Part shown: positions 5,267 through 41,651 of the stretch, one piece after another
How positions within the stretch are numbered: the stretch's first letter is position 1
Layout: every line of letters begins with the position of its first letter
Assembly: GCF_000002865.3 (NCBI RefSeq)
Contig: NW_001865086.1
Span: 97,447 to 161,446, forward strand
Direction of reading: 5' to 3'
From: Monosiga brevicollis MX1
Taxonomy: Eukaryota
DNA length: 64,000 bases
Program-made: the position numbers and the translations under genes
Notes under the pieces: generated by a model
What the model was told of the DNA's origin: nothing
Databases searched by the model: none
What the model saw: the letters and a program-made list of their open reading frames with translations, nothing else

Positions 5267-5267
<1 letters not shown>

Positions 5268-5269
<2 letters not shown>

Positions 5270-8281: not shown

Positions 8282-11200
8282 CTAATTGGCCGTGTAGTAT
8301 ACAACCAGCTCGGGATACATTTGGGCATTCTTAAACACCACCACCTCGTGGAATTCCCCAGAGGGTGTCGCGACGACCGAGTCATACCTAAAGAGAATTC
8401 AATGGCAAATGCAACCAGTCAGATCAGGTGGTGGACAGAGGTACCCTGCTGAAGGCAACATGCAATAGGCAGGCGATTTTGCCCGACGCACCGCTCGTTG
8501 TTGGGCGCAGCGGGCAGGAGCGGTGGCGCCAGCGCCCCAGAAGGAGGTGATGGATGGACAAAGGCATGACCCAACAGGGCTCGCGTGATGATGAGCATCC
8601 GTTCGCCGTTGGGTCCAGTATTGGTGTACCGGTGACTCTGAGATCATGTAAGCACATTGCGTCAGCACCACAGCACTTGGGTAAACAGGCGAGATTGACA
8701 GCCAGCGCAGCGCTGCCCTACCTTGCCGGGATGGTCCGTCAAGTAAACACCGAGACCGAATCGGTGGCCGACATTTTTACCCGCAAAGCGATAGTCAAGG
8801 CCCAGGCGCACAATCTTGTCGCGCAACATTGTGTCAGGGGCGATGCCGTGGAGCAACAGGCGCTCTTGACAGGATGCATCGCGAAGCAGAGCTGGAGAGC
8901 CCGAGGGTGCATCTAATGTGGACGTTTGGAGTTGATCATAGTGCTCTTCATTTTCGATACGATGCAACATCTCTCGTCGCTTGGCGCTGTAGCGCTCCCA
9001 CAGCACGGGGTTGTGCACGCGCTCCACTCGTTGCACTGTGATATTCGCTGGTCCCCGCCCATCGGTGTTCAGCTGCTTCAGTAGCTCACCCACCTAGCCA
9101 CCCAGTAGGTTCAAATCAGACGATTCGTGGAAGAGAGAAAAAAAATCACAAGCAACGCACCTCTGAAATGAGCTCGGGCGCATCGCGCAAGACATCAATG
9201 GCTGGCCCAACAACTTGGGTCGTGACAGGTCGTTCTGCGAATTGCCCGGCGCTGAAAAGGCTTGGCCGTTGCTTTGGATCTGCTGCCAGCAAGGCTTGCG
9301 TTTCCTTGTACAGATCGCCCACTATGTCGCACATCTGCACAGAAACACAGGTATGAGCAACTACAACGACAACGACGACGACGACGACAACCAGAGCGTC
9401 TTAAAATCATAGAGAAAAAAATAATAATTGACTGACCTCGGCCGCCAGATGAGGAAAGCTAAAGGCACCATCTCCCGCTTGGAAATTCCATCTGCAATGA
9501 CCCACAACCTCATCGGTTCGCGACTGAGCCGGCGGCACCGTTTGTGGGAACATGTAGGTGTTGTATAGCACACAGCCAAAGGAAAAGGCATCCTGTGCTG
9601 GACGCGCCCCCACTCGGCCCCGGCCAAAAAGCACTTCGGGTGCCACATAGCCCGCCGTGCCCGACGATGCGGTGGCCGTAGATGGTAGCATGGTGGCTTC
9701 AGCGGCGGCCTTGGCAATGTCAAAATCGCCCAGCCGCACAACAGGTTGGTCCTCTGCACCGTCCAACATGATGTTGCTCAGCTTGACATCCCGATGCACC
9801 AAGCCCTTGCTATGCATAAACGCCAGCGCCGTGCGCAGCTGATTCATCAGATTCGAAATCACGGTCGAGGTGGCCATGTGGCGTGCCTTGCTGAGCCACT
9901 GCTGCAGATCCCCCTGTGCACACCATGGCTGCACCAAATAGGCGCTCGGGTGGCCACTGTGTACGTCCACGAGCGCGCCGAGGACCGGGATGATGTGTGG
10001 GTGCTTAAGCTGGCGCATGGCGCGAAGCTCGCGCAAGAATGTACGGCACTGATCCTGCTTATGTTGGCGAGCAAATGCATACTCCTTGACGGCCAAATCT
10101 TGTTCCCCAGAATCTTTCAGCGCGGCACGGGCCTTGTACACCTTGTGGTTTTGGTTGTAATGAAGATCAAGCTGGCCCAGGCTGGAGAGCGACAATGTGC
10201 GATCCACTTCGGTCATGGCCTCCAAGATCAGGCTGGCTGGAAGGTCGGGCCCAAGCACTGTGCGGAGGCGCGCTCCCAGCCTGCTTTGTTCAGGGTGCAA
10301 AAAGACCAGCAGCGCTGGAAAGTGTTGGTGCAGCAGCTGAGCAAGCTCGGCGACGTGGTCCACGTGAGACTGATTTGATAATTGTTGTCGCAAGGTGTCG
10401 CGTCGCTTTTCTAGCTTTTTGAGGTCCTGCTCGAGACCAGACCGAACAGTTTCGGGCAGATGTTGTAGAGCCGTGTGAAATCCTTGAATCTCGGTCTCCA
10501 CCTTGGTTAGTTCCTCGTGGGCAGCAACCGATTCATCATCGACGTCTTGGTTTAAGCTGTCCACGTGCCTTATGCACGAGGTCAACACGGACAGCGTCGT
10601 GGCTTGCCAGTCGATCATGTCTTGCAACTGCTGCACCAGGGCTTGCGCCTCGTGAAGCGCAAACGCCAGATACCAATCTTGATTCTCATAGTCGTGCTCG
10701 ACTCTCCATGTTATCAGCTGCTCCAGGCCGTTCTGCTCGGGCAAGCTCAGCCTTTCGTGGGCTTGGCACAGCTCCTCCCAGGCCTTGGGCAATGCCTCGG
10801 CTGAAGGTGGTGCACTCACATCCAAGCCTTGCGCACACTGCTCTAGTGTGTCCACGCGATGGTCCGTGTCGGTGGCTCCCGCTCTTGCCACAGCACGCAG
10901 GGCAGTAATCAGCTTCAGCACTAGCTGCTGGAGGCTGCTGTTGGCGTTGGTGAACAGTTCTATGCGCTTGGCTCCCACGTCGCGTAGCATGGCAACTTTG
11001 TCCAGGGCTGCACTGAGGTTGGCGGGTGGCGTTTCGGGTGCCATTGTCAGCGTGGTGGGTGGAGCGGGGCACGCTGCCAGCACGTCCTGAAGCTCGAGAA
11101 GCACCGGCTGCAGCTCAAAACCAGCAGTGACATCATGCAGCTCTTGCAGCACTGCTTCTAGGTTGTCAGTGTTGGGGTCCAATTGACCCAAGCGGTTGTT

Positions 11201-13536
11201 CAACGCTTCGGGCGCTGCCAGTGCCTGGTCGAGCGCGCCGAGGGCCTGGGTGGTGGTCGCCTGGAAGGCAGGCCAGTCCATGGCAGGAAACTCTGGTGGC
11301 GCTTCATCGATGGTCCTCTGGATGTCCGCAACTGCCGTTGCAAGATTGGGGGTTTGTTTGGCGGCACCGCTGATAAATGCATCGAGGTGAGGGAGAGTAT
11401 GGCTGGTGGTGCGCGTGGGCAAGAGGGGCCTAAGCCAAGTATCCACCGCCACCACAACAGAGGCCGTGGTCTAATGGAGGGTTGTGTGGTGCCCATTGGT
11501 CGTGATGAGGTTGGATGAGGCCGTAGGAATTGGGGTAGTAAATGCATTGGGGAAAACAAGATGGGGGAGCAGGCTCACCTCGAGGGTGGGGGTGGTGGGC
11601 AGAGGCGGTAGCCAGGCGGAAGGCGGTGCCGGCGTGGGCGGAGCGAGTGGTGCGGGTGGTTGTGATAGGCGAGCCTCGTGAGCAGCAAACACGGGCTCCA
11701 GCTTGTCGCCATGCCCGCGTTGACGTCCGTAATCGAGGGGCGTGTTGCCATCCTGAAAACATGTGATTGGAGCGTGTGAGGTGGGCAGCGACGTGAGGGC
11801 TGAGTTGGGCGACGTGCATTTGCTTTTACATAACAAAGGCGAGGTGACAATGCTTTGAAGTGTGCCGGAGCCGCCAGACGCGCGAGTGGTGTGCAAATGG
11901 TGCGGGCAGGTAGCAGGGGTCCGAAAGGAGGCCCGCTTGGAGAGAAGGAAAAAAAAAAACGAAAAAAAAAAAGAAAGAAAGAAACGGCGCGTGTGCCGGG
12001 GGCAAAAGTGAAGGCACGGCCACCGAAAGCCGTTGGAGCGAGCGAGGGAGGCAGAGGCGTGATGACAAGGGGCTGGGGATGGATCAGAAAAAGGGGAGAG
12101 CGAAAACGGCAGGCGGAAGAGACAAGTGGGGCACGGGGCGCACCGGCAAAGGGCGGACGCAAAACGGGGAAAGAAGAGGGACAGCGGGAAAGAAGACAAG
12201 GAGCCAGGGGGGGAGAACGGACGCGCACGGGTGGGCAGGGTGTTGCGGAGAGGAGGGACGGGGGCAAAGGCGACGGGGCAGCGGGAGCAGGAGCAGCAGC
12301 CAGAGGGGTAAAGGGGGGAAGAGGGAGGTACTGTACTGACGTTGTCCTTGGCTTCAGTATCAACACCGTGCTCCAACAGCATCTCCGCCACCTTGACACG
12401 ACCGTTATAGCAGGCCCAGTGCAGTGGTGTATCGCCATACTGTGGGATGATGCATCAGCATGACGTACAGGTACAGCATCATCATCATCAGCATCATCAT
12501 GGGGTACAGGTGCACCGTCATAGGGGGGTAAAGGGGGAAAGAGGGAGGTACTGTACTGACGTTGTTCTTGGCTTTAGCATCAGCACCGTGCTTCAACAGC
12601 ATCTCCACCACCTTGACATGACCGTTACGGCAGGCCTTGTGCAGTGGTGTATCGCCACGCTGTGGGATGATGCATCAGCATGGCGTACAGGTACAGCATC
12701 ATCATCATCATCATCATGGGGTACGGGTGCAGCATCATATGGGGGGTAAAGGGGGGAAAGAGGGAGGTACTGTACTGACGTTGTCCTTGGCTTTAGCATC
12801 AGCACCGTGCTGCAACAGCATCTCCACCACCTTGACATCACCGTTACGGCAGGCCCAGTGCAGTGGTGTATCGCCATACTGTGGGATGATGCATCAGCAT
12901 GACGTACAGGTACAGCATCATCATCATCAGCATCATCATGGGGTACAGGTGCACCGTCATAGGGGGGTAAAGGGGGAAAGAGGGAGGTACTGTACTGACG
13001 TTGTTCTTGGCTTTAGCATCAGCACCGTGCTTCAACAGCATCTCCACCACCTTGACATGACCGTTACGGCAGGCCTTGTGCAGTGGTGTATCGCCACGCT
13101 GTGGGATGATGCATCAGCATGGCGTACAGGTACAGCATCATCATCATCATCATCATGGGGTACGGGTGCAGCATCATATGGGGGGTAAAGGGGGGGAAGA
13201 GGGAGGTACTGTACTGACGTTGTCCTTGGCTTTAGCATCAGCACCGTGCTGCAACAGCATCTCCACCACCTTGACATCACCGTTACGGCAGGCCCAGTGC
13301 AGTGGTGTATCGCCATGCTGTGGGATGATGCAAACATGCAATACACACTCCAGTGACATATTCAAAGTGTAACCAATATCACACAACATCATACCAAACA
13401 GCATACGTACCCGATCATCTTTGTATTGGGCAGCATCTCGTATACGTTGTTGGTCCCAACTGGTCAACAGCTGAAGCGCCTTTTGTGGATCTAATGTAAG
13501 ACACGCCATGTACAGCTGCTTTCCATCATCACTCAT
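8282..13536 (-). CDS. Ankyrin repeat - helical/coiled-coil - protein kinase - PARP-type ADP-ribosyltransferase fusion, copy A (about 1208 aa, 12 exons)
   Basis: Exons, all GT-AG and in frame: 13536-13411, 13317-13219, 13098-13000, 12878-12780, 12659-12561, 12439-12341, 11752-11579, 11470-9437, 9334-9161, 9093-8722, 8637-8492, 8387-8282. Motifs: GxTPLHxAC ankyrins; kinase [82 protein letters not shown]. Confidence 0.9.
12341..13317 (-). repeat. Tandem exon+intron array: five 99-nt ankyrin exons, period about 220 bp, with a 439-bp higher-order duplication
   Basis: Exon starts 13317, 13098, 12878, 12659, 12439; near-identical introns of 120/121/120/121 nt. Confidence 0.95.
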
Positions 13537-14394
13537 GGTCACGGTATCTCTCTCTATTCACCATCCGCTTCAAACCGCTTTGCTTGCTTCTCTATCCACC
13601 ACCAATCTCATGAGCCCCCTCCAAATACAACTCGTCTGACAACCCAGAATTCGGACTGGGATTCGACAGGCGCGCCGTTTCCAAAACGGCAGCCGGTCAG
13701 CGGGCTCCTTGCTCTTCTCTGCCTGGTGCACCAAACGACTCACCTTTGGACAACAGTTCTCGGTGACAGTGGCGAGGACCGGTGTACTTGGTTGCCCAGC
13801 GCACGTTGTCGACTGCGAGGTGAGATCAGTGAGGTCAACTGAAAGCAAAAAACAAAAAAATGGCAGCGGTGCTTTCAATCAAAACGTTCTGGCGTCGCTG
13901 CAAGGCCCCGACCAGGAAAGTCCGGTACCAAGCACAAACGATCAGTCACCACGCACACACACAGAAAGCAAGACACGTCAAGCAGCCCGCCGATGCCGAT
14001 ACCGATACCGACACCGCTGCCAAAAAAGGGCACCACCAACAACAAGAAGAAGAAGAAGAAGAAGACGAAGTCAAAAGCACAAGCAAAAGCAAAAGCAAAA
14101 GCAAAAGCAAAAGCAAAAGCAATGGCAAACAACCGAAAGGAAGAAAAATGCAAGCAACACAACACACACGTTTACACCTTTTTCTTCTTCTTTTTTAATT
14201 TTTTTATTTTCAAAGAAGAAAAGCACTGGACCGGGCTCATGGGTGGTAAGGACGGTTTGCGCCGGTCAATCGGATCGCCACGCCCAACGTACCTGCCAAA
14301 TCTATTGGCTCGGCCGATCGAGCCCCCGTGTATTTCTTTCTTCTGCGCACCAACCACACCCATAGAGAGTGTAATTCGTCTCAGTTTTATGTAT

Positions 14395-14560
14395 CTCTCA
14401 AACTCTCTCTTTCTCTCAAACTCTCTCTATCTCTCTCAAACTCTCTCTCTCAAACTCTCTCTCTCAAACCCTCTCTCTCAAACTCTCTCTCTCAAACTCT
14501 CTCTCTCAAACTCTCTCTCTCTCAAACTCTCTCTGTCTCTCAAACTCTCTCTCTCTTTCT
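14395..14560. repeat. (TC)n-AAAC compound microsatellite
   Basis: Repeated CTCTCTCTCAAA units. Confidence 0.9.
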
Positions 14561-15215
14561 CACGCCTTGTGTACGAACAACGTGACAGCTCGCCTCTTAC
14601 ACCACAAAAATGGGGCTCGTACCTACAACATGTACTGCCCCTTTGCCAGCCATGCCATTCCAAGCCCGTTGGCTAACTTGCCTGGTCATACCAATCTTAT
14701 TCCCCGCCCAAACGTGAGCGACCATTCCTGACGGCGAGCTTTAGGTTCATCGCCATGGCGGTCATGGTGCTGCTCGTTCCCTTTGAACGCGCGTTTGCCT
14801 TCTGGAGCATTGCAACGGCAACCTTCACAAACCGATATATCTCCTGCAATAACTTACATCATCATTCCTAGCAGAAATACATTAACTTCTCGTATATCGA
14901 AATAAACGGTTTAAAGAAGAGTAAAAAACCCGAGGTGCATTTCCCCTGCAGCAACTTGCATCTTGTTCAACATTGCGAGGTTCGGGGCAGCAAGGGCAGC
15001 GGGTGACGGGACTGAGGAAGGGACGCGGGTGAGGAGCAAGTGTAGCAGAGACTCTTTTTAANNNNNNNNNNNNNNNNNNNNNNNNNNNNNNNNNNNNNNN
15101 NNNNNNNNNNNGTTTGGAAACCCCACCCCGACAGAAGACCCATCATGTTGCGCGCTTGTAAATTTAAAAATGGACACACTCGTATACAAGCGGGAGTTGG
15201 CCCTCCCCGGAGATT

Positions 15216-18090
15216 TCAATTGTAGGCGCGATCGCGGCCGTGGGGCTCGCTGAGCAACGCCTCGTAATTGTCCGGCCCTTGGGCCACAATGCCCAGAGGA
15301 TTGATCTTGCGATGGGAACCTACAGCAACATACAAAGCGCCAGAACACACACGCGCGCGCACACACAAACAATTGTGTCGTCAGCTCAGCTTGGACACGC
15401 TCATAAACCTTGGACACTTTGGCCTCAGCCCATCTCTCACGCGCTGTCGGCACGGATCGTACCAAAGTAGTGCTTCTTGGTCTCCAGCGGGTTAAACGTC
15501 GCGCTGACACCCTCCATCTGGTAAATCTCCCGCGTGTAGCCCCACAGGTTGGGGTAGTCCACCACGCGGCGCTTGTTGCACTTGAAATGGGTATGGTATA
15601 CGATATCAAAGCGCAGCTACTCATCCAATAACCCACACCAAATGAGCACATCGACATCACGTCGATTGGTGTGTGCGGTTGCTTTCGAGCCAAGGAAGAA
15701 AAAAAATAAAACGTACCAAGGTGGTGACCAAGCGAATGTCCGAAAGGGTCAGTCGGTCGCCACAGAGATAGCGCTGCTTGCCCAACAACGCCTCGACCTT
15801 GTCCAAAGCGTCAAACAGCTTGGTGCAGGCCGTATCGTAGGCTTCCTGGCTGCCCGCAAAGCCACAGCGATATACGCCCTGAAAATGGGCCCAGCACGAG
15901 ACACACGAGTTCAAATCAGCTGCACACCCCCAAAAACTCTGTTTTGATACAAGACAGTGTCTGCCACATACATCGTTGATGTTGGGATACACGAGCTCGT
16001 CAATCTCGGTCATGGCCGATTCCAAATCGGCCGGCTCCAGGTCCAGCTCGGGACGCTTGGCCAAATCGTTGAACTGTGAGTTGAACATGCCTAAAGGTCA
16101 AGGATATGTGCACGAGTCAGGCACCACACCAAGAGGTGAGCGCCACAAAGAGAACAGATCATCGGAAGAAATCCTCAAGTTGTCCTTGAAAAGGACAGAG
16201 GAAAGTTGTCTGATTGGGGTTTTTTTTTTTCTTTAAAGAAAAAAAGGCCAAGGGGTGGCGCGCGGGAGGCTTGGGGGCAGGCTGACGCACGGATGATTTC
16301 GCTGCTTTCATTGTTAACAATGGTCTAAAAAAATGATCGCGAGCCCGCGGCATGCTTGATGAGATTGCGTCCGGGACGCATTGCAGGCCCGTGGAGGATG
16401 AACCAACCTGAGTCTTCTTATCAAAGAGGACGGGCACGGAAAGCTTCTTGTACGGATAGCCGGGCTGTGCCAAATTGTAAACCTGGCAGATCATCGGTAC
16501 ATGATGGAAATAGGGTCATGAGGGCATACTGGAGTGTGATGCCGCNNNNNNNNNNNNNNNNNNNNNNNNNNNNNNNNNNNNNNNNNNNNNNNNNNCTGTC
16601 GCGGAACCTGTCATGGAGCCAATGACCACAATGGCTCCGCTCGCCTCGCACGTGATCCAGGGGTTCCGAGCAAACCTCCAGAAGAAGTCGCAACGCCTAC
16701 AGACTTTTGGCTTTGATCCTTACTTCTCGGCCTACATTGCTGTGACCATGCACATGAACCATCAGCTCAAGGCGAACCTGGCAGCAACCTGGTCTTCCCA
16801 TTGGGACCATGTCATGGTACCCTTCCTCGAAGGTGCCCTACACCGCAACCTTGCAAGTCCGGACATCACCCCAGCATCCTTGGAAGACGCCCGAGCCCAC
16901 CTGCACAAACAGTTTGGTTTCCACTTGGGAGTCGCCGCCCTGGCCCGAATGTTGGACGCTTCGACGAGCAATTTTACTGGACTCGCTGAGTTCGATGAGT
17001 GGGTGCAGGCGGTTGATTGCATGTTTCAGCACGAACCGCTTGAATACACCATGCTGACCAAGCTCCAGATGCTGTGCAAGCTCCAGCGCCAGTGCACTTG
17101 CAGCCGACTGGTGGAGCGTCTCGCCACTGCGGCACACCAGGCTACATCTGGTCCAGCAACCACGTTGACTAGAATCGTGAAAGAAGCTCTCGATGGTTAC
17201 GTCCCGACTCGTGATACTCTTTTCAGCGTGCCAAGCAACCGGACGGCGCACAAGGGGCCGACGATCCACTCGGCCGCCGGATGCCGCAAGCGGCCTCTGA
17301 AAGAATAGGCCAAGGAAGGTCTCGGAGGGGCAATGGCTGTTGCGTACGTCGTGAAGATACTCAAACTCTGGGTGAAGAGGATCGGGGTCCTCCTTGGTAA
17401 AGGGCCAGCCGCGGTAGGGCCGGCCATCATCGGGCCACTCCAGAAACCAGCCTAAAGCCGACGCGGGCCATGGAATAGCGCAGTGGTGTGGTGCCAACGG
17501 CGTGAGGGCAGGGCGTGGTCCTTGGGAAGTGTGGATGAGCAAAGCTGTGGCTGAGGGAGGAAGGGTGCGAAAAGCTAACCAAGCATGGTGACGGAGATGA
17601 CGTCTTCGAGGCCCTTGAGCGAGCGCATCAAGAGGGCGCGGTGGGCCCAGGGACAAGCCCATGCCACGTCTAAAAAGGATGGGCCGAGATGAGTCGCAAG
17701 GCACTTTCCAAAGCTCGAAGCACTGTCCAAAGCATGTGTGTGTGCATGCACGCGCAAGGCGAGGGGATGGCAAAAACACAGTCGAGACGCACAGAGGTGG
17801 TAGCGACCGGCTTCGGCCGGGTACTTTTCCGAGCCAATGGTGTCGTGAAAGGCCGTAGGGGGGCGACGAAAGGCACCAGCCTTGGCCTCTTCCTCAGACA
17901 CGCCAAATTTGTTTTGGTCCGAGCCCTCGACCTACGCACGAATTTGGAAAGAGCCAGCGTCAGAAGCTGCAAGTGGCCAGGATGGCAGACACCAATAGGC
18001 GAGAGCACCAACGTGGGCAAATTGATCCGAGGCAGTGGTGCCAAAGATGTCGCCTTGGCTGGCGCCGACGTTATCCTTGTTAGCAGCCAT
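15216..18090 (-). CDS. Glutathionyl-hydroquinone reductase / Xi-class GST (YqjG/ECM4 family), multi-exon
   Basis: [19 protein letters not shown] active site; [71 protein letters not shown]; stop TGA 15216-15218. Start exon MAANKDN (18090) is inferred. Spans an N gap. Confidence 0.9.
16596..17308 (+). other. Antisense ORF (at least 231 aa, open into the gap) nested in a GST intron; possibly a gag-like insertion
   Basis: Uninterrupted ORF inside intron 16483-17347, which is far longer than neighbouring introns. [14 protein letters not shown] loosely resembles the retrotransposon gag helix. Confidence 0.35.
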
Positions 18091-18962
18091 TGTGAGCAAC
18101 CGGGATTGAGGCAAGACTGCAGAGCCGAAGCTGAATCGGGATGCGCAATAGTACAGCAGCAAAGCGTTGATGAGGGGCCAGGTTTGCGACTTTTTTAAAA
18201 AAAAAAGAAAGAGGTCACAAGTGATAGAGTCGGCACGCAACAACAACAACAACAAAGAAAAGAGCCGGATGAGGGAAGACATACCGGTGGGTCGAGGTAG
18301 CGCGGGCAAAGGGCTTGCTGGTGACGCCGGTGTGCGCAGTTCGAGAGGCTGTGAGCAGACGCTTGGAGACGGGAACACTCGATCGCCACAACCGCTGAAG
18401 ATGCGCTCCAAACATTGATAGCTGAACATGGCAGCACGTAGCACGGTCCGTGAGAGTTGGGGCCAGGTAGGAGTACGCAGGACAGGCAACAGTCTTTGCG
18501 CCAAGCCACAACCGGGACGTACCGAGGAAGGGAGTGAGACAACAGTACGCGTAAAAGGGCTCCAGGCACTGGGACTTGTTCTTGAGAGAGAGAGAGAGAG
18601 ATGAAGAAAATGCCACTTGGAAAAGTGTGTTGAGCATCTAATCTTGTTGTGATGGCAACATGATCAGAGACTGTGTCATTCGTGTTGGACGAAGGACCCA
18701 GAGGCTTGAGAAAGGTGGACGACTTGAGACGAATGCGCGAGGCGCGATCCTTGCCATGGCCAGTCCTGTGCAAAGTGCGTCCCAGTGTTCATGGACGTCG
18801 CCGCTGCCCTTTTAGCTTCTTTTTTTTCAGGTAGCTCCATCCTCGGATGTAAACTTTTTTTGCCTGGGATGTGTATATTTGTCCTGGGAAATAGCATTGG
18901 TATCCTGGGAAATAACATCTGCTTTGTTTTTTTTGCGATGATGGTGTTATGACGTGATTTCG

Positions 18963-19919
18963 TCATCTTGATGGGAGAGTGTGTTGCAGCCAGGCGCGCT
19001 TTCGTAAGCGCGCTGGGAAGGCCTCCAGCTTGCAGCGGCCGCGGTGGCGCGCCGAGCTCGGTGTGGCGGTGTGCGACCTTGAAACCAACAAAACGAATTG
19101 TGACGCCGAAATGATGGTGGTGGGGGTAATTGGTGATGGTGATGAGGAAGAGATGGCAACTTGGTCTTGCAATTCTTCTGCAAAGCTAAAACGATCAGAC
19201 TATGTATCATCATCATATACTATCATGTCGTCGTCGCAGCACGGTCTGTCGGCGAGGGCGGGCTCGGCCCTGAACCCACTCGCGTCTAGACCTGGCCTGG
19301 CGCATGGCCCAGCTCGCTTGCGGCTGAGCACGCTCTGAAAACAACGCACACACATACACATACACACACAGAGGGCACATACATCAGTACAGACACCCGT
19401 ATGTTGGAGCGAATTAAGTTTTTTTCTCTATGGGAGGCTGTAGGCGGTTTGGCCGTCCTCTTTGTCGTTCTCGTGAGGGTGGTGGGTGTGGGAGGAAAAG
19501 AGTTGGTCAAGCTCTTCGGGGGTCCAAGACTCTTCGTGGTGGTCCTCGTCGTTGGTGACCGATTGGCTAGGGGTTGTGTCCAGAAAGGGAAGGGGATGTG
19601 TGCCGCGGCGGAGGGCGAGGTTGGAGGGGCGCGGATGGAACGTAGATTTGATCGCGAGTTCTAGTCGGTCTGTGCTGGACCGAGCTTTGGTGCCGTTGTC
19701 CAGCGACAATGATAAGAGCGAGGCCGACAAGGGCGTCGCGGCAACGGCGGCGGTGGAGGAGTTGGCAGTGACCGATTCAGTCGAGGCTGGCAGGGGGGGC
19801 GACAAAGCTTCAGCCGATGACGGCTCGTGGTCGTGGTAGCAGAAGGCTTGCTGCTGATGGCGATGATGGCGATGGCGGTGATGATGGTGGTGGTGGTGGT
19901 GGTCGTGGTGCACGGCCAT
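18963..19919 (-). CDS. Hypothetical His/Ser-rich low-complexity protein (exon structure uncertain)
   Basis: ORF MAVHHDHHHH...EESWTPEELDQLF...; possible downstream exons near 19340-18963; no recognised domain. Confidence 0.3.
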
Positions 19920-21133
19920 TGTGCTGGTGGTTTCTGGCACGCAGCTGTTGAAAAGAAAGGAAACAAGGGGGCAGAGCACGCTCTGATGGCTCAAGTCTGG
20001 AGGGTCCGGGGTCGTGGGGGACGGGTGGGTAGCGCAGGTGTCGACGTCAAAAGTTGGGCAACACTGGCAGCCGCGGCGGTCGGTAATCTGGCAAATACAA
20101 CGGCAGGGGCATTCAATCTCTGCAAGCGCATGGTGTCCACCCGACCAAGAAGCGCACAGTTCTACCCTTCTTGACCGTCGATCACACACGATGGCAGAGC
20201 GTGTCCCTCGATCAGAAGCTCACGCGCTCGCCACAGAGAGTGTGTGTGGGATTGAGAGGGAGAGGAAGAGAGGGGCGAGCGAGGACAATGTTCGTTTGAG
20301 TGAGTGTGTGTGAGTGAGTGTGTGTGTGTGTGTGTGTGTNNNNNNNNNNNNNNNNNNNNNNNNNNNNNNNNNNNNNNNNNNNNNNNNNNAACACACACAC
20401 ACACACATGATGAACACATGCACAAGTGTATCATCATCATCATCAGAATAGTCGACATTTTCACGAAAATGAGTCCGTAGGTGGTATTTTGGCACGTACG
20501 GCGCACCTGCACCACCTCCTGCCTGCCTGCGTATCTCCACCACCTGCCCCGTTAACACCAGATCATCCATGCACCTGCCCCGCCTGCGTACCTTCACCGC
20601 CTTGCACCGCCCGCGTACCTTCACCACCGGCACACCTCCGACGCTATCGCTTCTTGGCGTTTGTTGGATGCGCACCTGCATCACCTGGCGCGCTTGCACC
20701 GTACGGCTGGCTTTCGCAGATTGGCGAGCACACCACCGCCGCCGGGTCAGCAACATCTGGTCGATGCTGAGTCATGGACCGCCGCCACCTCCCTCTTCTT
20801 ACACACTGCCACTGCCATTACAACCACTCCAGCTGTCGTTACTCGTGCCCCGAGTGCCGAGTTCCGGAGCTTCGAGCCGCGATCAGACCCGAACCGGGTC
20901 ACGAGACGACTCTCTGCAACAGAAATTGGAGAGCGACGGAGAAACGTTCGATGCAAGCGGCGACCGGCTCCATTGGCCAGATGACCGTCATGCTCATCTG
21001 GTACACATGCGCGCCTCTCTGCCTGTGTGCGTGTGTGCTGGCGGTCGGGGCCACAGGAAGCCGAGAGATGACCAGGCAGGCCATAAGCCTTTAGTACTAT
21101 GGCGCCAAGAGTGCATGCATGCCACTCTCCCTT

Positions 21134-21191
<58 letters not shown>

Positions 21192-21192
21192 T

Positions 21193-21223
<31 letters not shown>

Positions 21224-27949: not shown

Positions 27950-28023
27950 TCCTGCGTGGCGCAATTGGTTAGCGCGTTCGACTGTTAATCGAAAGGTTAC
28001 GAGTTCAAGCCTCGTCGCGGGAG
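27950..28023 (+). tRNA. tRNA-Asn(GTT), copy 1
   Basis: Cloverleaf: acceptor TCCTGCG/CGCGGGA, D stem GCGC/GCGC, anticodon stem TTCGA/TCGAA with loop CTGTTAA, T arm ACGAG-TTCAAGC-CTCGT; downstream T-run. Confidence 0.97.
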
Positions 28024-28752
28024 CTACACGATTATTTTTTGTCTTTTTGTAACGTAGAGACGGTGAATGCTATTTTGCTATGGGGGAAATGCGTGTGGAG
28101 TACTTCAGGCTGATGCTCTGGCGAATGGTGCTAGGTGGGGCACACGATGGATCCAGAGCTTGTTCTGATGTTCTCTTTTTTTACATGTTAAGCCGGGGGG
28201 CTATAATCGTCGATGCTGAGCCCCGTGTTAGTTTTTGTCTAATTGTACCGTATTCGGCCAATATTGAGCGGGCAGGGTGAGCAAGACATTCCACTTCGTG
28301 TAATCAGATCGAATGCTGTACAACAGTGAGAGTATGCGTCGGACGGACTCTGAATAGCGCACGGCGACGATCCTGGAGTCTGCTTTCTGCCGGCTGCGTT
28401 GGCTGGCTACAAACATCATTCGACGTGGTCAATTACTAAAATTTTAAGCGTAACCTATACGCCACCGTGGAAAACAATTGATTGGTCGGAACAAACTTGG
28501 TGTACACGCTCGACAAACACGTATACTGACGTACCAGGCATGGTATATCCCAACGGCAGCGCCTGTTACAAGTCACGTCCATGCTATACTCTCCTCAACT
28601 GCAGATATGAGCCCTGATCTGACTCGAACAGCAAGGGAAAAAAAAGCAACGAAAAACCAAATGTAATTACACCGAAAAGGGAAGCTGACGATTTTTTAAT
28701 TGTAAGACAGTGTTTATAAATGGAATTATGCATGCGGGTATTAACAAGTGAT

Positions 28753-28826
28753 TCCTGCGTGGCGCAATTGGTTAGCGCGTTCGACTGTTAATCGAAAGGT
28801 TACGAGTTCAAGCCTCGTCGCGGGAG
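28753..28826 (+). tRNA. tRNA-Asn(GTT), copy 2
   Basis: Identical 74-nt sequence to copy 1; downstream T-run. Confidence 0.97.
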
Positions 28827-29208
28827 CTACACGATTATTTTTTGTTTTTGGTCGACCCGATCATGAATGAGAGCTTCAAATGAGAGATGAGAGAGAGCTT
28901 GGCACAGCGGCGGCAGTGGAGAGCTCTCAGACCGCTCTTCGTGTGTTTTTTTTTAACATCCAGGATGAAAATTTTTTACATGTTATTTTTTTAACATCCG
29001 GATGTAAATTTTTTTTTGCTTCTTGCCACCATGCCACCACAGGCCTCCCCCATGGTAACGCGGCCGTCATATGAAGAGCGCATGCCCACGACCACCACAC
29101 CCACAATTGACCACTGGGTTCAATTTACAAATTCAGACTCGAGAATGACGATACGAAATCAGTCTCTAGTGTCCAACGCGGCAGTCTCATCCCATCCCGA
29201 TAGGTTGA

Positions 29209-33951: not shown

Positions 33952-34246
33952 GCTTTTTGCCTGTCGTAATGCCCAAGGTGATAATGATAATACCACTGAT
34001 CAACAGCCAAGCACACTGCGTTGCGCGGTCGGCGGGTGGCGTGAGTGACAGTAGGCGGCTGGGCCACAGCAAGCAGCACAGCCCGGGCCTGGGCGTTCGC
34101 CATCATCCTGGAGCCCATCACGGTCAACAACGGGACGAGCGAACACAGTGACAATCACGCAAATCAATTGTCAGAAAAAACAAAATGATAATTAAATCCA
34201 TGTTCTATATATGTAATATTATGATCAGCAGACTTCAACAAGTGAT

Positions 34247-34320
34247 TCCTGCGTGGCGCAATTGGTTAGCGCGTTCGACTGTTAATCGAAAGGTTACGAG
34301 TTCAAGCCTCGTCGCGGGAG
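34247..34320 (+). tRNA. tRNA-Asn(GTT), copy 3
   Basis: Identical 74-nt sequence; shares about 45 bp of upstream flank with copy 1. Confidence 0.97.
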
Positions 34321-35367
34321 CTACATGATTACTTTTTGTCTTTTATCGCTCTCCTTTTATTGCTCTCCTTCTTCTTCTTCTCGTCCTTCTTCGACAAGCT
34401 TCCGTGCACTGCCTCTTCTCTTTATTAGTCTTTAGCTTTGTATTTGTCTCTCTCGCTTTGTTCGACTTTACCTTGTTTCCTGTTGTTACATGTGGTAGTT
34501 GTGCTTTTCCTTTGTGTCTTTGCTCTTTATTTCTCCCGACCAAACCATGAACGCCCTTTGTTACCAAGTGTCATCGCCTACTTTTTTTTTTTTCTTTTTG
34601 TTCTTTGACTTTCGCTCCACTGTTGTGTTAGGGGCAAATGGGGATGGCTGGCTGGTGTTGGATCGGGTCGGAGCGTTAGGGGTTGGTGGGTGTGCTTGGG
34701 CCGGGTCGGGTCGAGCTTGTGCAACAGGGTCATGAGCTTGACTGTTTCTTGATTGAGAGGGTGTGGATGAAATGTTGTTTCTCCAACCGACACGGTTCTG
34801 TAGACCGGAAGTGGCATTTTACTTTGTACCTTTCCCGTTTCAATTTCCTCTGTTTGCTTTGTGAATTCACCACAAACAGATCACATCCAAAAAAATGGCT
34901 TTTACTCGCTTTGTAGCCTAGCACAAATTAATTCCGTACATGGTGATCAACGCAAAGGCTGGCATCGACAATCAACGCCCCTACAGTCTTCGAGGTATCA
35001 AGGCGTGCCGCAACCGTGTGCTGGAAGCAGCGATTAAACTCAAAATGCTGAGAGACCAACGGGCGTCGACAGAGTGCTCCAATGATTGCCTGAACGGCTC
35101 ATGCTGATGATGATGATGTCACGACACTCCGCATCGCCCGAGGAGCAGAAACCAGGAGCAAGTGAAAAAAAAAAAAAAAAAAAAAAAAAGAAGAAGGACA
35201 TGAAGCACAGTCATTGAGCGCGCGCCTCGCACTTGTCTGACCAACTTTTCTTGGACGCGCGTTGCCATGAGCTTAAAGCTGGCTCGCTCGCCGTCAGGAA
35301 TGGTGGCTCACATACCCGGGCGGGGGATAAGATTGATGTGACTGAAGGGGCAGTTAGCCAACGGGCT

Positions 35368-35702: not shown

Positions 35703-36372
35703 ACTGTTGTTGTTTTGACTTTCCTCTCCGAAAATAAAAAAGTAAAAAAGAAGAAGAACAAGGTGTAAACGTGTGTGTGTGTGTGTTGCTTGCATTTTCC
35801 TTCTTCTGGCCTCTCTCTTTGGCTTGTTGCCATTGCTTTTGCTTTTGATCTTCTTCTTCTTCTGCTTCTTGTTGGTGTTGCCCTTTCTTGGCAGCGGTCT
35901 CGGTATCAAAATTGGCATCGGCGGGCTCCTTGATGTGTCTTGCTTTGTGTGTGTGTGCGTGGTGACTGATCGCTTGTGCTTGGTACGGGACTTTCCTGGT
36001 CGGGGCCTTGCAGCGACGCCAGAACGTTTTGATTGAAAGCACCGATGCCATTTTTTTGTTTTTTGCTTTCAGTTGACCTCACTGATCTCACCTCGCAGTC
36101 GACAACGTGCGCTGGGCAACCAAGTACACCTGCCCTCGCAACTGTCATCGAGAACTGTTAACCAAAAGGTGAGTCGTTTGGTGCACCAGGCAGAGAAGAG
36201 CAAGGAGCCCGCTGACCGGCTGCCGTTTTGGAAGCGCGCGCCTGTCGGATCCCAGTCCGAATTCCGGGTTGTCAGACGAGTTGTACTTGGAGGGGGCTCA
36301 TGAGATTGGTGATAGATAGAGAAGCAAGCAAAGCGGTTTGAAGCGGATGGTGAATAGAGAGATACCGTTGCC

Positions 36373-37959
36373 ATGAGTGCTGATGGAGAGCAGCTGTTCA
36401 GTGCGTGTTGTTCATCAGATCCACAAAAGGCGCTGCAGCTGTTGACCAGTTGGGACCAACAACGTATACGAGATGCTGCCCAATACAAAGGTGGTTGGGT
36501 ACGTATGCTGTTTGGTATGATGTTGTGTGATACTGGTTACACTTTGAATATGTCACTGGATGGGGTGACGTTATGGTATAACATGGGACATATACTGCAT
36601 GTTTGCATTTTGCCACAGATTGGCCATACACCACTGCACGGGGCCTGCATTAACGGTCATGACAAGGTGGTGGAGATGCTGTTGAAGCACGGTGTTGATA
36701 CTAAAGCCAAGGACAACGTCAGTACAGTACCTCCCTCTTCCCCCCCTTTACCCCCCCCTATGATGATGCACCCGTACCCCATGATGATGATGATGATGAT
36801 GCTGCTGTACCTGTACGTCATGCTGATGCATCATCCCACAGGGTGGCCGTACACCACTGCACGATGCCTGCGATAACGGTCATGACAAGGTGGTGGAGAT
36901 GCTGTTGCAGCACGGTGCTGATGCTAAAGCCAAGGACAACTCGGTCAGTACAGTACCTCCCTCTTCCCCCCTTTACCCCCCCTATGATGCTGCACCCGTA
37001 CCCCATGATGATGATGATGCTGATGCTGTACGTCATGCTGATGCATCATCCCACAGAATGGCTATACACCACTGCACAATGCCTGCTATCACGGTCATGT
37101 CAAGGTGGTGGAGATGCTGTTGAAGCACGGTGCTGATACTGAAGCCAAGACCAACGTCAGTACAGCACCTCCCTCTTCCCCCCTTTACCCCCCTCTATGA
37201 TGGTGCACCCGTACCCCATGATGATGATGATGCTGTACCTGTACGTCATGCTGATGCATCATCCCACAGGGTGGCCAAACACCACTGCACTATGCCTGCG
37301 ATAACGGTCATGACAAGGTGGTGGAGATGCTGTTGAAGCACGGTGTTGATACTGAAGCCAAGGACAACGTCAGTACAGTACCTCCCTCTTTCCCCCCTTT
37401 ACCCCCCCTATGATTTTGCACCTGTACCTCATGATGATGATGCTGATGCTGTACCTGTACGTCATGCTGATGCATCATCCCACAGGGTGGCTATACACCA
37501 CTGCACGGGGCCTGCATTAAGGGTCAAGTCAAGGTGGTGAAGATGCTGTTGAAGCACGGTGTTGATACTGAAGCCAAGGACAACGTCAGTACAGTACCTC
37601 CCTCTTCCCCCCTTTACCCCTCTGACTGCTGCTCCTGCTCCCGCTGCCCCGTCGCCTTTGCCCCCGTCCCTCCTCTCCGCTACACCCTGCCCACCCGTGC
37701 GCGTCCGTTCTTCCCCCCTGACTCCTTGTCTTCTTTCCCGCTGTCCCTCTTCTTTCCCTTTTTTTCTTCCGCGCTTTGCCGGTGCTCCCCGCGCCCCGCC
37801 CTGCTCCCGCTGGTGTCTTCCGCCTGCCGTTTTCGCTCTCCCCTTTTTCTGATCCATCCCCAGCCCCTTGCCATCACGCTTCTGCCTCCCTCGCACGCTC
37901 AAGCGACTTTCGGTGGCCGTGCCTTCACGTTTGCATCCAACACACGCGCCGTTTCTTTC

Positions 37960-37993
<34 letters not shown>

Positions 37994-40900
37994 CTTCTCT
38001 CCAAGCGCGCCTCCGTTCGGACCCCTGTTACCTGCCCGCACCATTTGCACACCACTCGCGCGTCTGGCGGCTCCGGCCCACTTCAAAGCATTGTCACCTC
38101 GCCTTTGTTATGTAAAAGCAAATGCGCGTCGCTGCCCACCTCACACGCTCAAATCACATGTTCTCAGGGTGGCGAAACGCCCCTCGATTACGGACGTCTA
38201 TGCGGGCATGGCGACAAGCTGGAGCCCGTGTTTGCTGCTCACGAGGCTCGCCTATCACAACCACCCGCACCACTCGCTCCGCCCACGCCGGCACCGCCTT
38301 CCGCCTGGCTACCGCCTCTGCCCACCACCCCCACCCTCGAGGTGAGCCTGCTCCCCCATCTTGTTTCCCCCAATGCATTTACTACCCCAATTCCCACGGC
38401 CTCATCCAACCTAATCACGACCAATGGCACCACAACCCTCCATTAGACCACGGCCTCTGTTGTGGTGGCGGTGGACAAGTGGCTCAAGCCGCTCTTGCCC
38501 ACGCGCACCACCAGCCATACTCTCCCCCACCTCGATGCCTTTATCAGAGGTGCCGCCAAACAAAACCCCAATCTTGCAACGGCGGTTGCGGACATCCAGA
38601 TGACCATCGATGAAGCGCCACCAGAGTTTCCCGTCATGGATTGGGCTGCCTTCCAGACGACTACCACCCAGGCTCTCAACACACTCGACCAGGCACTGGC
38701 AGCGCCCGAAGCGTTAAGCAACCGCTTGAAGCAATTGGACCCCAACACTGACAACCTAGAATCAGTGCTGCAAGAGCTGCACGGTGTCACTGCTGGTTTT
38801 GAGCTGCAGCCGGTGCTTCTCGAGCTTCAGGACGTGCTGGCAGCGTGCCCCGCTCCACCCACCACGCCAGTGATCGCGCCCAAGAAGCCACCCACCGACC
38901 TAGCTTCGGCCCTGAGAAAAGTCATCGTTCTGAGCGGCGTGGAACCCAAGCGTCAGGAGCTGCTCACCAGCGCCAACAGCAACCTCAAGCGCCTCGTGCT
39001 GGCCTTGATTGATGCCCTGGGCGCCGTGGCAAGAGCGGGAACTACCGACACAATTCATCGCGTGGAGACGCTACGGCAGTGCGCGCAATGCGTGGATGCA
39101 AGTGCACCACCTCCAGCCGAGGCATTGCCCGGGGCCTGGGAGGAGCTGTGCCAAGCGCACGAGAAGCTGAGCCTGCTCGAGCAGAACGGTCTTGAGCAAA
39201 TTGCTCAGTGGCAACCACCTCCAGACTACGAGCATCAGGATTGGTACTTGGCGTTTGTGCACCACGAGTCGCAAGCTCTGCTGCAGCAGTTGCAAGACAT
39301 GATCGACTGGCAGGCCACGACGCTCTCCGTGTTGACCTCGTGCATGAGTCACGTGGACAGCTTGACCCAAGGCGTTGATGATGAATTGGTTGCTGCCAAC
39401 GAGGAACTGACCAAGGTGGAGAATGAGATGCAAGGTATCAGCGCGGCATTGCAGCTGGTGCCCGAAGCTGTTCGGTCTGGTCTCGAGCAGGAACTCAAAA
39501 AGCTAGAAACGCGACGCGACACCTTGCGACAACAGTTATCAGATCAGCCACACGTGGACCACGTCGCAGAGCTCGCCCAGCTGCTGTACCAACACTTTCC
39601 AGCGCTGCTGGTCTTTCTGCACCCTGAACAAAGCACGCTGGGAGCGCGCCTCCGCACAGTGCTTGGGCCCGACCTTCCAGCCAGTCTTATCTTGGAGGCC
39701 ATGACCGAAGTGGATCGCACATTGTCGCTCTCCAGCCTGGGCCAGCTTGATCTTCATTACAACCAAAACCACAAGGTGTACAAGGCCCGTGCCGCGCTGA
39801 AAGATTCTGGGGAACAAGATTTGGCCGTCAAGGAGTATGCATTTGCTCGGCAACACAAGCAGGATCAGTGCCGTACATTCTTGCGCGAGCTTCGCGCCAT
39901 GCGCCAGCTTCAGCACCCACACATCATCCCGGTCCTCGGCGCGCTCGTGGACGTACACAGTGGCCACCCGAGCGCCTACCTGGTGCAGCCATGGTGTGCA
40001 CAGGGTGATTTGCAGCAGTGGCTCAGCAAGGCACGGCACCTGGCCACCTCGACCGTGATTTCGAATCTGATGAATCAGCTGCGCACGGCGCTGGCGTTTA
40101 TGCATAGCAAGGGCTTGGTGCATCGGGATGTCAAGCTGAGCAACATCATGTTGGACGGTGCAGAGGACCAACCTGTTGTGCGGCTGGGCGATTTTGACAT
40201 TGCCAAGGCCGCCGCTGAAGCCACCATGCTACCATCTACGGCCACCGCATCGTCGGGCACGGCGGGCTATGTGGCACCGGAGGTGCTATTTGGAATGGGT
40301 CGTGTGGGAGCACGCCCGGCACAGGATGCCTTTTCCTTTGGCTGCGTTCTCTACAACACGTACATGTATCCACAAACGGTGCCACCTGCTCAATCGCGAA
40401 CCGATGAGGTTGTGGGTCATTGCAGATGGAATTTCCAAGCGGGAGATGGTGCCTTTAGCTTTCCTCATTTGGCGGCCGAGGTCAGTCAATTATTATTTTT
40501 TTCTCTATGATTTTAAGACGCTCTGGTTGTCGTCGTCGTCGTCGTTGTTGTTGTAGTTGCTCATACCTGTGTTTCTGTGCAGATGTGCGACATAGTGGGC
40601 GATCTGTACAAGGAAACGCGAGCCTTGCTGGCAGCAGATCCAAAGCAACGGCCAAGCCTTTTCAGCGCCGGGCAAATCGCAGAACGACCTGTCACGACCC
40701 AAGTTGTTGGGCCAGCCATTGATGTCTTGCGCGATGCGCCCGAGCTCATTTCAGAGGTGCGTTGCTTGTGATTTTTTTTTCTCTCTTCCACGAATCGTCT
40801 GATTTGAACCTACTGGGTGGCTAGGTGGGTGAGCTACTGAAGCAGCTGAACACCGATGGGCGGGGACCAGCGAATATCACAGTGCAACGAGTGGAGCGCG

Positions 40901-41651
40901 TGCACAACCCCGTGCTGTGGGAGCGCTACAGCGTCAAGCGACGCGAAATGTTGCATTGCATCAAAAGTCAGGAGCACTATGATCAACTCCAAACGTCCAC
41001 ATTAAATGCACCCTCGGGCTCTCCAGCTTTGTTTCGAGATACACCCTGTCAAGAGCGCTTGTTGCTTCACGGCATCGCCCCTGACACAATGTTGCGCGAC
41101 AAGATTGTGCGCCTGGGCTTTGACTATCGTTTCGCCGGTCGCCGCAGGGGCCACAAGTATGGTCTTGGCGTTTACTTGGCCGACCATCCTAGAAAGGTGT
41201 GGTCGAATTGTTGGTTTGCAGGGTTCTACGTGTGTGTCCTCACATTGCTTTTTTGGCGCTGTGTGTCTACTTGAACCTGGGTGTAGAGTCACCATTATGC
41301 GACGCCCGGAGCAAACGGCGAGCGGATGCTCATTATTACGCGAGCCCTGTTGGGCCGTGCCTATGTCCATCCTTCGCCTCGTTCTCGGGCACTGGCTCCT
41401 CCACTGCTGCCCGCTGCACCCAACAACGAGCGGTTCGTCGAACAAAATTTTCTGATTCTGGCATGCTGCCCGACGTCTCCTGCCCGCCTTCTGCCCGTCT
41501 TCTGACCTAGCCTGACCTAACCGCCACGTCTGCCTTTTCTTTTAGATATGATTCGGTCATCGCGACGCCGCTCAATGCGTTTCGCGAGGTGATTATCTTT
41601 GAGAATGCTCAAATCTATCCTGAGCTGGTGGTGTACTACACGGCCGATTAG
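36373..41651 (+). CDS. Ankyrin repeat - helical/coiled-coil - protein kinase - PARP-type ADP-ribosyltransferase fusion, copy B (about 1209 aa, 12 exons)
   Basis: Exons 36373-36498, 36619-36717, 36842-36943, 37057-37155, 37270-37368, 37486-37584, 38168-38341, 38447-40480, 40583-40756, 40825-41196, 41287-41432, 41546-41651. Same motifs as copy A ([51 protein letters not shown]). Confidence 0.9.
36619..37584 (+). repeat. Tandem exon+intron array: five ankyrin exons (99, 102, 99, 99, 99 nt)
   Basis: Each exon is flanked by CCACAG and GTCAGTACAG; introns of 124/113/114/117 nt differ mainly in C-run and (GAT)n length. Confidence 0.95.

What the first reader, a model, noticed from the sequence alone, without database searches (positions are those of the whole stretch)
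8282..41651. Multicopy ankyrin-kinase-PARP fusion family: candidate diversifying sensor-to-ADP-ribosylation receptor
Seen: two intact 12-exon genes join an N-cap, 5 ankyrin repeats, a C-cap, a Pro linker, about 400 aa of helical/coiled-coil sequence, a Ser/Thr-type kinase and a PARP catalytic domain in one frame; a third copy is decayed. Established: tankyrases are ANK-SAM-PARP, ankyrin kinases such as RIPK4/ANKK1 have no PARP domain, and ADP-ribosyltransferases act as defence effectors in animals and bacteria. I do not recognise a characterised protein with ANK, kinase and PARP in one chain. Inference: variable repeat sensor, two catalytic outputs and birth-and-death copies suggest an innate-immune or self/non-self receptor family in a unicellular relative of animals.
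Basis: partly seen in the sequence, partly recalled or inferred. Interest (0 to 1): 0.92.

Follow-up and report, generated by a model that had tools for sequence, protein, structure and literature searches.

The report
Choanoflagellate ankyrin-kinase-PARP variable receptors
A choanoflagellate, one of the closest single-celled relatives of animals, carries a large spliced gene family whose proteins join a fast-diversifying ankyrin binding surface, a protein kinase domain and a PARP-type ADP-ribosyltransferase domain, and these likely act as variable intracellular defence receptors.

Summary
Observation confirmed. Two intact 12-exon genes (A, 1208 aa; B, 1209 aa; all introns GT-AG) join five ankyrin repeats, a ~430-aa helical region, a kinase and an H-Y-E PARP domain. 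The third copy is only a frameshifted remnant of exons 9-12. RNA contigs show introns 7-11 spliced, at family level. Gene A is Monosiga brevicollis MONBRDRAFT_30380. I retrieved 35 related gene models on 19 scaffolds and no full-length homologue elsewhere (searches of limited reach). Each repeat is one 99-nt exon. Nine distinct exons show 32 extra amino-acid states and no synonymous one, concentrated on the binding face, while the kinase is under purifying selection. A and B are mosaics. The kinase keeps K/E/HRD/N but has DFD and no glycine loop. The closest layout is RNase L (ankyrin-pseudokinase-effector, same Gly-to-Asp change); the closest evolutionary pattern is fungal NLR and Ectocarpus repeat receptors. 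It is not a tankyrase. Immune function, ligand and enzyme activity are untested. The scan noted this family before on another piece of this genome, and similar layouts in other protists (not tested here). No paper in my searches describes the three-domain fusion.

The parts
13411..13536 (-). Gene A exon 1, ankyrin N-cap (start codon inferred)
   Evidence: same N-terminus in annotated model P0122 and similar in P0016, P0270
12341..13317 (-). Gene A exons 2-6: five 99-nt phase-0 exons, one ankyrin repeat each (13317-13219, 13098-13000, 12878-12780, 12659-12561, 12439-12341)
11579..11752 (-). Gene A exon 7: ankyrin C-cap and Pro-rich linker
   Evidence: joint to exon 8 in 3 of 4 runs
9437..11470 (-). 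Gene A exon 8: helical/coiled-coil region and most of the kinase (K727, HRD 824-826, DFD 847-849)
9161..9334 (-). Gene A exon 9: end of kinase C-lobe and linker to PARP
8282..9093 (-). Gene A exons 10-12: PARP catalytic domain (9093-8722, 8637-8492, 8387-8282), triad H1083-Y1118-E1188
36373..36498 (+). Gene B exon 1, ankyrin N-cap (start codon inferred)
36619..37584 (+). Gene B exons 2-6: five ankyrin exons (36619-36717, 36842-36943 with one extra codon, 37057-37155, 37270-37368, 37486-37584)
38168..38341 (+). Gene B exon 7: C-cap and Pro-rich linker
   Evidence: joint 38341/38447 in run X4
38447..40480 (+). Gene B exon 8: helical region (to about 39750) and kinase (K728, HRD 825-827, DFD 848-850 at 40190-40198)
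40583..40756 (+). Gene B exon 9: end of kinase and linker
40825..41651 (+). Gene B exons 10-12: PARP domain (40825-41196, 41287-41432, 41546-41651), triad H1084-Y1119-E1189
6219..7249 (-). Copy C: frameshifted remnant of exons 9-12 only, about 72% nucleotide identity to A and B
13537..14221 (-). 5' flank of A, shared with B's 5' flank (35720-36372) as part of the 6-kb inverted duplicate
   Evidence: (88% identity over 6033 columns)

Best explanation
These are spliced members of a multicopy Monosiga brevicollis family that join a hypervariable ankyrin surface, a helical stalk, an atypical kinase domain and an H-Y-E PARP domain, and they likely work as cytosolic defence receptors in which binding of a foreign protein to the ankyrin repeats would switch on ADP-ribosylation. 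Shown: the gene structure, family-level splicing, copy number, one repeat per exon, amino-acid-only variation on the ankyrin binding face, purifying selection on the kinase, mosaic exchange between paralogues, intact catalytic motifs, and no membrane-spanning segment. Inferred: (1) the repeats bind variable non-self proteins from bacteria, viruses or other parasites; (2) binding clusters the protein through the coiled-coil or kinase domain, as RNase L dimerises through its pseudokinase; (3) the kinase acts as a nucleotide-binding or autophosphorylation switch; (4) the PARP then ADP-ribosylates itself or nearby proteins, probably with single units or short chains, and this drives tagging, growth arrest or cell death. 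New specificities would arise from point changes at five positions per repeat, unequal crossing-over between near-identical exon-intron units and segment exchange between paralogues.
For: Gene models. Splicing across C-cap/helical, kinase and kinase/PARP boundaries. Family of 35 models on 19 scaffolds. Ankyrin exons of A versus B differ by 58.5 non-synonymous and 0.5 synonymous changes; the kinase by 6.5 and 26.5 (Fisher p 1.8e-15). Nine distinct exons: 32 extra amino-acid states, 0 synonymous. pN at five positions is 0.525 against 0.06 divergence in the introns between them. In 36 distinct family repeats, exon positions 1, 3, 8, 11 and 12 carry 10-15 residue types (2.7-3.5 bits) on a near-fixed frame; positions 3, 8, 11 and 12 also differ among the DARPin repeats shown. 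A and B are 98% identical in the kinase, but their PARP cores fall in separate supported clades (AU p 0.00026). HRD loop identical in 28 of 28 motif matches, DFD in all 28 kinase matches; triad Glu in 20 of 21 matches. The same evolutionary pattern marks fungal NLR ankyrin repeats (PMC4986451, passages) and Ectocarpus one-exon-one-repeat receptors (PMC3341825, abstract and passages). RNase L is ankyrin-pseudokinase-effector and has Asp in place of the DFG glycine (PMC4718504, passages). The closest solved PARP domains are PARP12, PARP15 and PARP14.
Against: No ligand, activity or induction is shown. The M. brevicollis infection paper does not mention PARP, ADP-ribosylation or ankyrin in its main text. 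The kinase lacks the glycine-rich loop, so it may not phosphorylate anything. A 31%-identical paralogue (36900) keeps the kinase motifs but has lost the PARP histidine, so ADP-ribosylation is not the output of every member. The kinase shows no special closeness to RNase L or IRE1 (neither is among the best 60 of 173 structure hits), so the likeness is probably convergent. The five positions were picked from the same exons on which pN was first computed, repeats exchange sequence, and no codon-model test was run. Diversifying selection shows changing binding partners, not that the partners are pathogens.
Confidence: 0.45

Rival explanations
1. Direct restriction factor: the ankyrin repeats act as a targeting arm that captures a foreign protein, which the tethered PARP and kinase modify directly; no switch or downstream host pathway is needed.
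For: Tankyrases pick substrates with ankyrin repeats (established knowledge). The closest PARP structures are PARP12, 15 and 14, known as antiviral mono-ARTs (recalled). The PARP D-loop and the loop before the catalytic Glu vary among paralogues.
Against: About 430 aa of helical sequence and a whole kinase separate the repeats from the PARP. The kinase is the most conserved part, which fits a shared switch. The PARP core of A versus B has pN 0.125 below pS 0.406.
Confidence: 0.22
2. Conflict within the species or genome: kin or self/non-self recognition, or a toxin-antidote-like selfish family, in which the repeats read a polymorphic host protein.
For: Fungal HET-type NLRs with this repeat behaviour act in allorecognition (PMC4986451 passages; PMC12222747 abstract start). 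Clustered copies and a likely segmental duplication.
Against: No linked partner gene travels with both A and B in the window, and no cell-fusion incompatibility is known to me for this species (recalled).
Confidence: 0.1
3. Ordinary signalling protein whose copies multiplied by segmental duplication and drift; repeat variation is relaxed constraint plus gene conversion.
For: Many models are partial and one remnant lies in the window. A neighbouring beta-helix gene and a glutathione transferase gene appear to be duplicated with the family.
Against: Drift and conversion would carry synonymous changes along, yet there are 0 against 32. Variation is confined to binding-face positions. The kinase stays under purifying selection and transcripts are spliced.
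Confidence: 0.13
4. Tankyrase-like housekeeping PAR polymerase that marks conserved host proteins for degradation.
For: Ankyrin repeats plus an H-Y-E PARP; tankyrase structures match at E 3e-9.
Against: No SAM domain. The repeats are hypervariable where tankyrase is conserved. Tankyrases were not detected in M. brevicollis (PMC9688111, passages).
Confidence: 0.05

Closest known systems
RNase L (mammalian OAS/2-5A effector)
   Same: Order ankyrin sensor, kinase-fold domain, C-terminal effector enzyme in one chain; Asp in place of the DFG glycine (PMC4718504; DFD here).
   Different: Effector is a PARP, not an RNase. A ~430-aa helical region lies between repeats and kinase. HRD loop is canonical. 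The repeats are hypervariable and multicopy, not tuned to one small messenger. RNase L is not among the best 60 kinase structure hits.
Fungal NLRs with high-internal-conservation ANK/TPR/WD repeats (Podospora; PMC4986451)
   Same: Near-identical repeats with variation on the concave binding face, and signs of concerted evolution.
   Different: No NACHT or NB-ARC domain; sensor is N-terminal; output domains are kinase and PARP.
Ectocarpus ROCO-LRR and NB-ARC-TPR candidate receptors (PMC3341825)
   Same: One repeat per exon, high gene birth and death, diversifying repeat surface.
   Different: Ankyrin rather than LRR or TPR; no Roc-COR or NB-ARC; no spare or inverted repeat exons in this window.
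Tankyrase (TNKS1/2, PARP clade 4)
   Same: N-terminal ankyrin repeats and a C-terminal H-Y-E PARP.
   Different: Five repeats rather than five repeat clusters (recalled), no SAM, has a kinase; PARP scores higher to PARP12/15/14 than to tankyrase.
Clade-3 mono-ARTs PARP12, PARP15, PARP14, PARP10
   Same: Best solved matches of the catalytic domain (E 2e-17 to 3e-10).
   Different: Glu retained where PARP12 has Ile; no WWE, macro or CCCH domains.

Membership tests
PARP/ARTD catalytic family | PARP fold by profile match | tested here: met
   Pfam PF00644 above cut-off on whole models: 37.3 bits for the model of A, 43.1 for P0270, cut-off 26.7; 49 solved PARP chains matched
PARP/ARTD catalytic family | H-Y-E triad | tested here: met
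   H, Y and E present in A and B; E aligns with the PARP12 Ile; E in 20 of 21 motif matches
PARP/ARTD catalytic family | NAD+-dependent ADP-ribosyl transfer, mono or poly | not testable with these tools
   needs an enzyme assay
Tankyrase | SAM domain between ankyrin clusters and PARP | tested here: not met
   no SAM in Pfam scans of P0004, P0270 and P0122; a kinase occupies that place
Tankyrase | PARP domain closest to clade 4 | tested here: inconclusive
   67 bits to PARP12 versus 40 to tankyrase-2; no tree with reference PARPs was built
Active protein kinase | beta3 Lys, alphaC Glu, HRD Asp, catalytic Asn, DFG Asp | tested here: met
   all present in A and B; HRD loop identical in 28 of 28 matches
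Active protein kinase | Gly-rich loop and DFG glycine | tested here: not met
   no glycine in the loop region; DFD in all 28 kinase matches
Active protein kinase | phosphotransfer activity | not testable with these tools
   sequence alone does not predict it reliably (PMC4718504)
RNase L / IRE1 type | C-terminal KEN ribonuclease domain | tested here: not met
   C-terminal domain is PARP
RNase L / IRE1 type | kinase domain related to the IRE1/RNase L clade | tested here: inconclusive
   not among the best 60 of 173 structure hits; scores are flat across kinase groups
RNase L / IRE1 type | ligand-driven dimerisation through the kinase domain | not tested
NLR / STAND or ROCO receptors | NACHT, NB-ARC or Roc-COR NTPase core | tested here: not met
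   none in Pfam scans; the helical region is predicted all-alpha
Variable-repeat receptors (fungal HiC NLRs, Ectocarpus) | highly similar repeats with diversifying binding-face positions | tested here: met
Variable-repeat receptors (fungal HiC NLRs, Ectocarpus) | repeat-number polymorphism between strains or loci | tested here: inconclusive
   A and B both have five; A holds a recent two-exon duplication; public models skip exons, so their counts are unreliable
Variable-repeat receptors (fungal HiC NLRs, Ectocarpus) | role in non-self recognition | not testable with these tools
   needs ligand and challenge experiments
MLKL/HeLo-type helical executioner domain | four-helix-bundle or HeLo fold ahead of the kinase | tested here: inconclusive
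   model pLDDT 66; only generic hairpin matches, best Z 10.2 over 63 residues

The most novel reading that the evidence does not exclude
Monosiga brevicollis has an antibody-like repertoire of natural DARPin-type intracellular receptors, assembled from one-repeat exons and reshuffled by recombination, that couple pathogen recognition directly to ADP-ribosylation through an RNase L-like kinase switch: a receptor class with no STAND NTPase, in the sister group of animals, possibly part of a wider protist kinase-PARP system.
Probability: 0.3. Interest if true: 0.9.

Novelty: new variant of a known kind. Interest (0 to 1): 0.7.

Why it matters
Choanoflagellates are the sister group of animals, and M. 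brevicollis is now a genetically tractable model of pathogen response (PMC8592570), but few of its sensors are known. A family of some tens of copies with a diversifying binding face and a built-in ADP-ribosyltransferase is a direct candidate for a pathogen-recognition repertoire. It would link variable-repeat sensing, known from fungi and brown algae, to PARP signalling, known from animal antiviral defence, in one protein. Existing infection RNA-seq and knockout tools make this testable now. The domain layout is visible in automatic annotation but was not described in the papers I could search.

Tried and rejected
No whole genome was held, so copy number comes from public gene models, several of which are partial, fused or retain introns; 35 models is not 35 intact genes. 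Full-length AlphaFold model of paralogue P0004 was unusable (pLDDT 43.6) and was not used for a fold search. The helical-region model gave no Foldseek match at E 0.001 and only generic helical hairpins by VIA; this shows neither a new fold nor absence of an MLKL/HeLo-like fold. Homologues outside M. brevicollis: three word-index searches and one full HMMER search gave only single-domain matches (bacterial kinases, ankyrin-kinase proteins of oomycetes, one fish PARP14-like protein). Two of the word searches scored only the top ~8000 candidates and the HMMER list was cut at 150 rows, mostly ankyrin proteins, so absence elsewhere is not shown. Metagenome and viral contig scans found no relative; 18 pattern hits gave only generic ankyrin matches in the rows printed. 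In run X4 the 3' end of B (41389-41800) had no cover, and copy C had almost none in four runs; contigs cannot show absence, so expression of B itself and silence of C are open. Summed contig depth was not used as copy number or expression level. Infection RNA-seq gene tables were not in the readable supplements of PMC8592570; one archive was too large to read. King et al. 2008 was not held, and I did not read a Monosiga kinome paper; Table 1 and Fig. S1 of PMC4245714 were not seen. Any of these could mention the family. Rejected: separate ankyrin, kinase and PARP genes (joints); chance ORFs; membrane receptor (maximum 19-residue hydropathy 1.35); retroelement-type directed mutagenesis (codons ending in T are also what selection on the first two codon positions gives, and no template copy lies in the window).
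Full report
Observation. A self-comparison of the window shows a 6-kb inverted duplicate, 8280-14221 against 41653-35720, 88% identical, and a weaker third match at 6228-7286. Splicing by coordinates gives two 12-exon genes with no internal stop and GT-AG at all 22 introns: A on the minus strand (13536-8282, 1208 aa) and B on the plus strand (36373-41651, 1209 aa). Pfam finds ankyrin repeats, a protein kinase (E 1e-36) and a PARP domain. The third copy holds only exons 9-12, about 72% identical and frameshifted. Neither protein has a membrane-spanning segment.

One transcript or several? Four runs were laid on B (37420-41800) and four on A and C (6100-12500); seven of the 14 listed runs were used, all as assembled contigs. 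Run X4 shows GT-AG joints for introns 7, 8 and 9 on B. On A, introns 7-11 appear as joints: intron 7 in 3 of 4 runs, 8 in 4 of 4, 9 in 3 of 4, 10 in 4 of 4 and 11 in 2 of 4. One 517-nt contig of a marine metatranscriptome (X8) spans exons 10, 11, 12 and the 3' flank with 19 differing letters. A's last exon and 3' flank are covered without mismatch in X3, X4 and X5. The C-cap, helical region, kinase and PARP are therefore spliced together in this family.

Identity and family. The best 22 hits of exon 8 are all Monosiga brevicollis MX1 models. Model MONBRDRAFT_30380 is gene A, with two retained introns and the C remnant fused on. B matches none of the retrieved models (best 91% over 733 aa). In all I retrieved 35 models on 19 scaffolds; nine carry Pfam Ank, Pkinase and PARP together, and many others are partial. 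One deep paralogue, 36900, aligns at 31% over 1105 columns, keeps the kinase motifs and has lost the PARP histidine. No full-length homologue outside this species was found, but the searches were of limited reach. Earlier unchecked notes of this scan report the same family on another piece of this genome and similar layouts in Naegleria and marine protists; I could not test the latter.

The ankyrin module. Each internal repeat is one phase-0 exon of 99 nt (one has 102), and the introns between them differ by only 6%. Between A and B the five repeats differ by 58.5 non-synonymous and 0.5 synonymous changes, the kinase by 6.5 and 26.5 (Fisher p 1.8e-15). Among the 9 distinct exons of 10 there are 32 extra amino-acid states and no synonymous one. 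In 36 distinct repeats from 35 sequences, exon positions 1, 3, 8, 11 and 12 hold 10-15 residue types each, while most framework positions are nearly fixed (seven framework positions were fixed or limited by the search pattern itself). The best structural matches are designed DARPins, whose repeats differ at positions 3, 8, 11 and 12 in the alignments shown; DARPin surface positions form the paratope (PMC8683736, passages). In A, exon-intron units 2/4 and 3/5 are 217 of 219 and 220 of 220 identical, a very recent two-exon duplication or an assembly artefact. Caveat: the positions were first chosen from these exons, and no codon model was run.

Mosaic evolution. A and B are 98% identical in the kinase, 66% in the middle of the helical region and 80% in the PARP core. 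Their nearest paralogue changes from segment to segment. In trees, an A+B clade is not rejected for the kinase (AU p 0.36, 21 rows) but is rejected for the PARP core (p 0.00026, 22 rows); the test on the helical region did not finish; rows under 90% cover were left out.

Enzymes. The kinase keeps the beta3 Lys, alphaC Glu, HRD Asp, catalytic Asn and DFG Asp. It lacks glycines in the P-loop and reads DFD in all 28 kinase matches. It has no close solved relative. The PARP domain scores best with PARP12, 15, 14 and 10, then tankyrase. It keeps Glu where PARP12 has Ile, in 20 of 21 motif matches among 27 sequences; His is present in 24 of 26 PARP motif matches. The D-loop and the loop before the Glu vary among paralogues. 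Mono or short-chain activity seems more likely than long chains, because the nearest relatives are mono-ARTs and a basic residue stands where polymerases have an acceptor-site Met (recalled; inference). The helical region is predicted all-alpha with a long hairpin (pLDDT 66) and matches no specific fold.

Mechanism. The pattern of a diversifying binding face on near-identical repeats, birth and death of copies, segment exchange and conserved enzyme cores is that of fungal NLR ankyrin repeats (PMC4986451, passages) and Ectocarpus candidate receptors (PMC3341825, abstract and passages). The order sensor-kinase-effector is that of RNase L, whose pseudokinase scaffolds dimerisation and has Asp for the DFG glycine (PMC4718504, passages). 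I therefore favour a ligand-gated receptor: a foreign protein binds the repeats, the protein clusters, the kinase domain relays the signal and the PARP ADP-ribosylates (0.45). Direct modification of the captured target is the main rival (0.22). Together these defence readings come to about two thirds. Every functional step is inferred.

Literature. Ten searches found no paper on an ankyrin-kinase-PARP or kinase-PARP fusion. PMC4245714 (passages and two of three parts of section 3.1) notes ankyrin plus PARP proteins in M. brevicollis without mentioning a kinase. PMC9688111 (passages) found no tankyrase in this species. PMC2964712 (passages) names Monosiga only for clade 1. PMC8592570 (passages and two supplements) does not mention PARP or ankyrin. 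Most subscription papers are not searchable, and unseen tables and supplements could list these proteins. The domain combination itself is visible in public automatic annotation.

Verdict. Real, spliced, multicopy and under diversifying selection at its binding face. It is not a tankyrase, an NLR or an RNase L orthologue. It is best classed as a new variant of variable-repeat sensor-effector proteins, with function untested. Interest 0.7.

Noticed in passing
window 7862-7963 and 4573-4675: A ~100-bp repeat (85% identical copies) just downstream of gene A. Summed contig depth over 7812-8025 was 4,000-20,000 in three runs guessed to be RNA. No Rfam match there. It may be an abundant small RNA or a repeat shared by many transcripts.
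   Followed up: partly
window about 15220-17700 (minus) and 16598-17308 (plus): A spliced glutathione transferase gene (Pfam GST_C_2) upstream of A holds, in an intron next to an assembly gap, a 236-codon open frame on the other strand with no Pfam match; possibly a mobile-element fragment.
   Followed up: partly
window 985-1980, 15660-17449 and models P0121, P0275: Model 34748 on the same scaffold joins a 98%-identical copy of the window's beta-helix gene, GST pieces, a kinase-PARP gene and a C-like tail. This suggests the block was duplicated outside the window. Model 12954 is a further family member on that scaffold.
   Followed up: partly
window 36373-41651: Gene B matches none of the 35 public models retrieved and may be unannotated; the public model of A is fused to the C remnant and retains introns.
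   Followed up: yes
window 36073-36168 (plus) and its counterpart upstream of A: A conserved stretch with AG before and GTGAGT after it lies upstream of both start codons; probably a 5' untranslated exon. Not covered by the RNA laid.
   Followed up: no
ankyrin exons of A and B: At exon positions 1 and 11 every codon ends in T while the first two letters vary.
   Followed up: partly
P0139 (MONBRDRAFT_36900): Deep paralogue with conserved DFD kinase and a truncated PARP lacking the His; its model runs on into a Fringe-like glycosyltransferase, perhaps a fused annotation.
   Followed up: partly
window 61593-63242 (minus), 48849-49313 (minus), 985-1980 (minus): Other genes: a Forkhead-domain ORF, an HpcH/HpaI aldolase-citrate lyase exon and a beta-helix ORF.
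   Followed up: no
window 27904-28047, 28743-28849, 34201-34344; 139-236 and 34792-34888: Short dispersed repeats at 93-99% identity, not examined.
   Followed up: no
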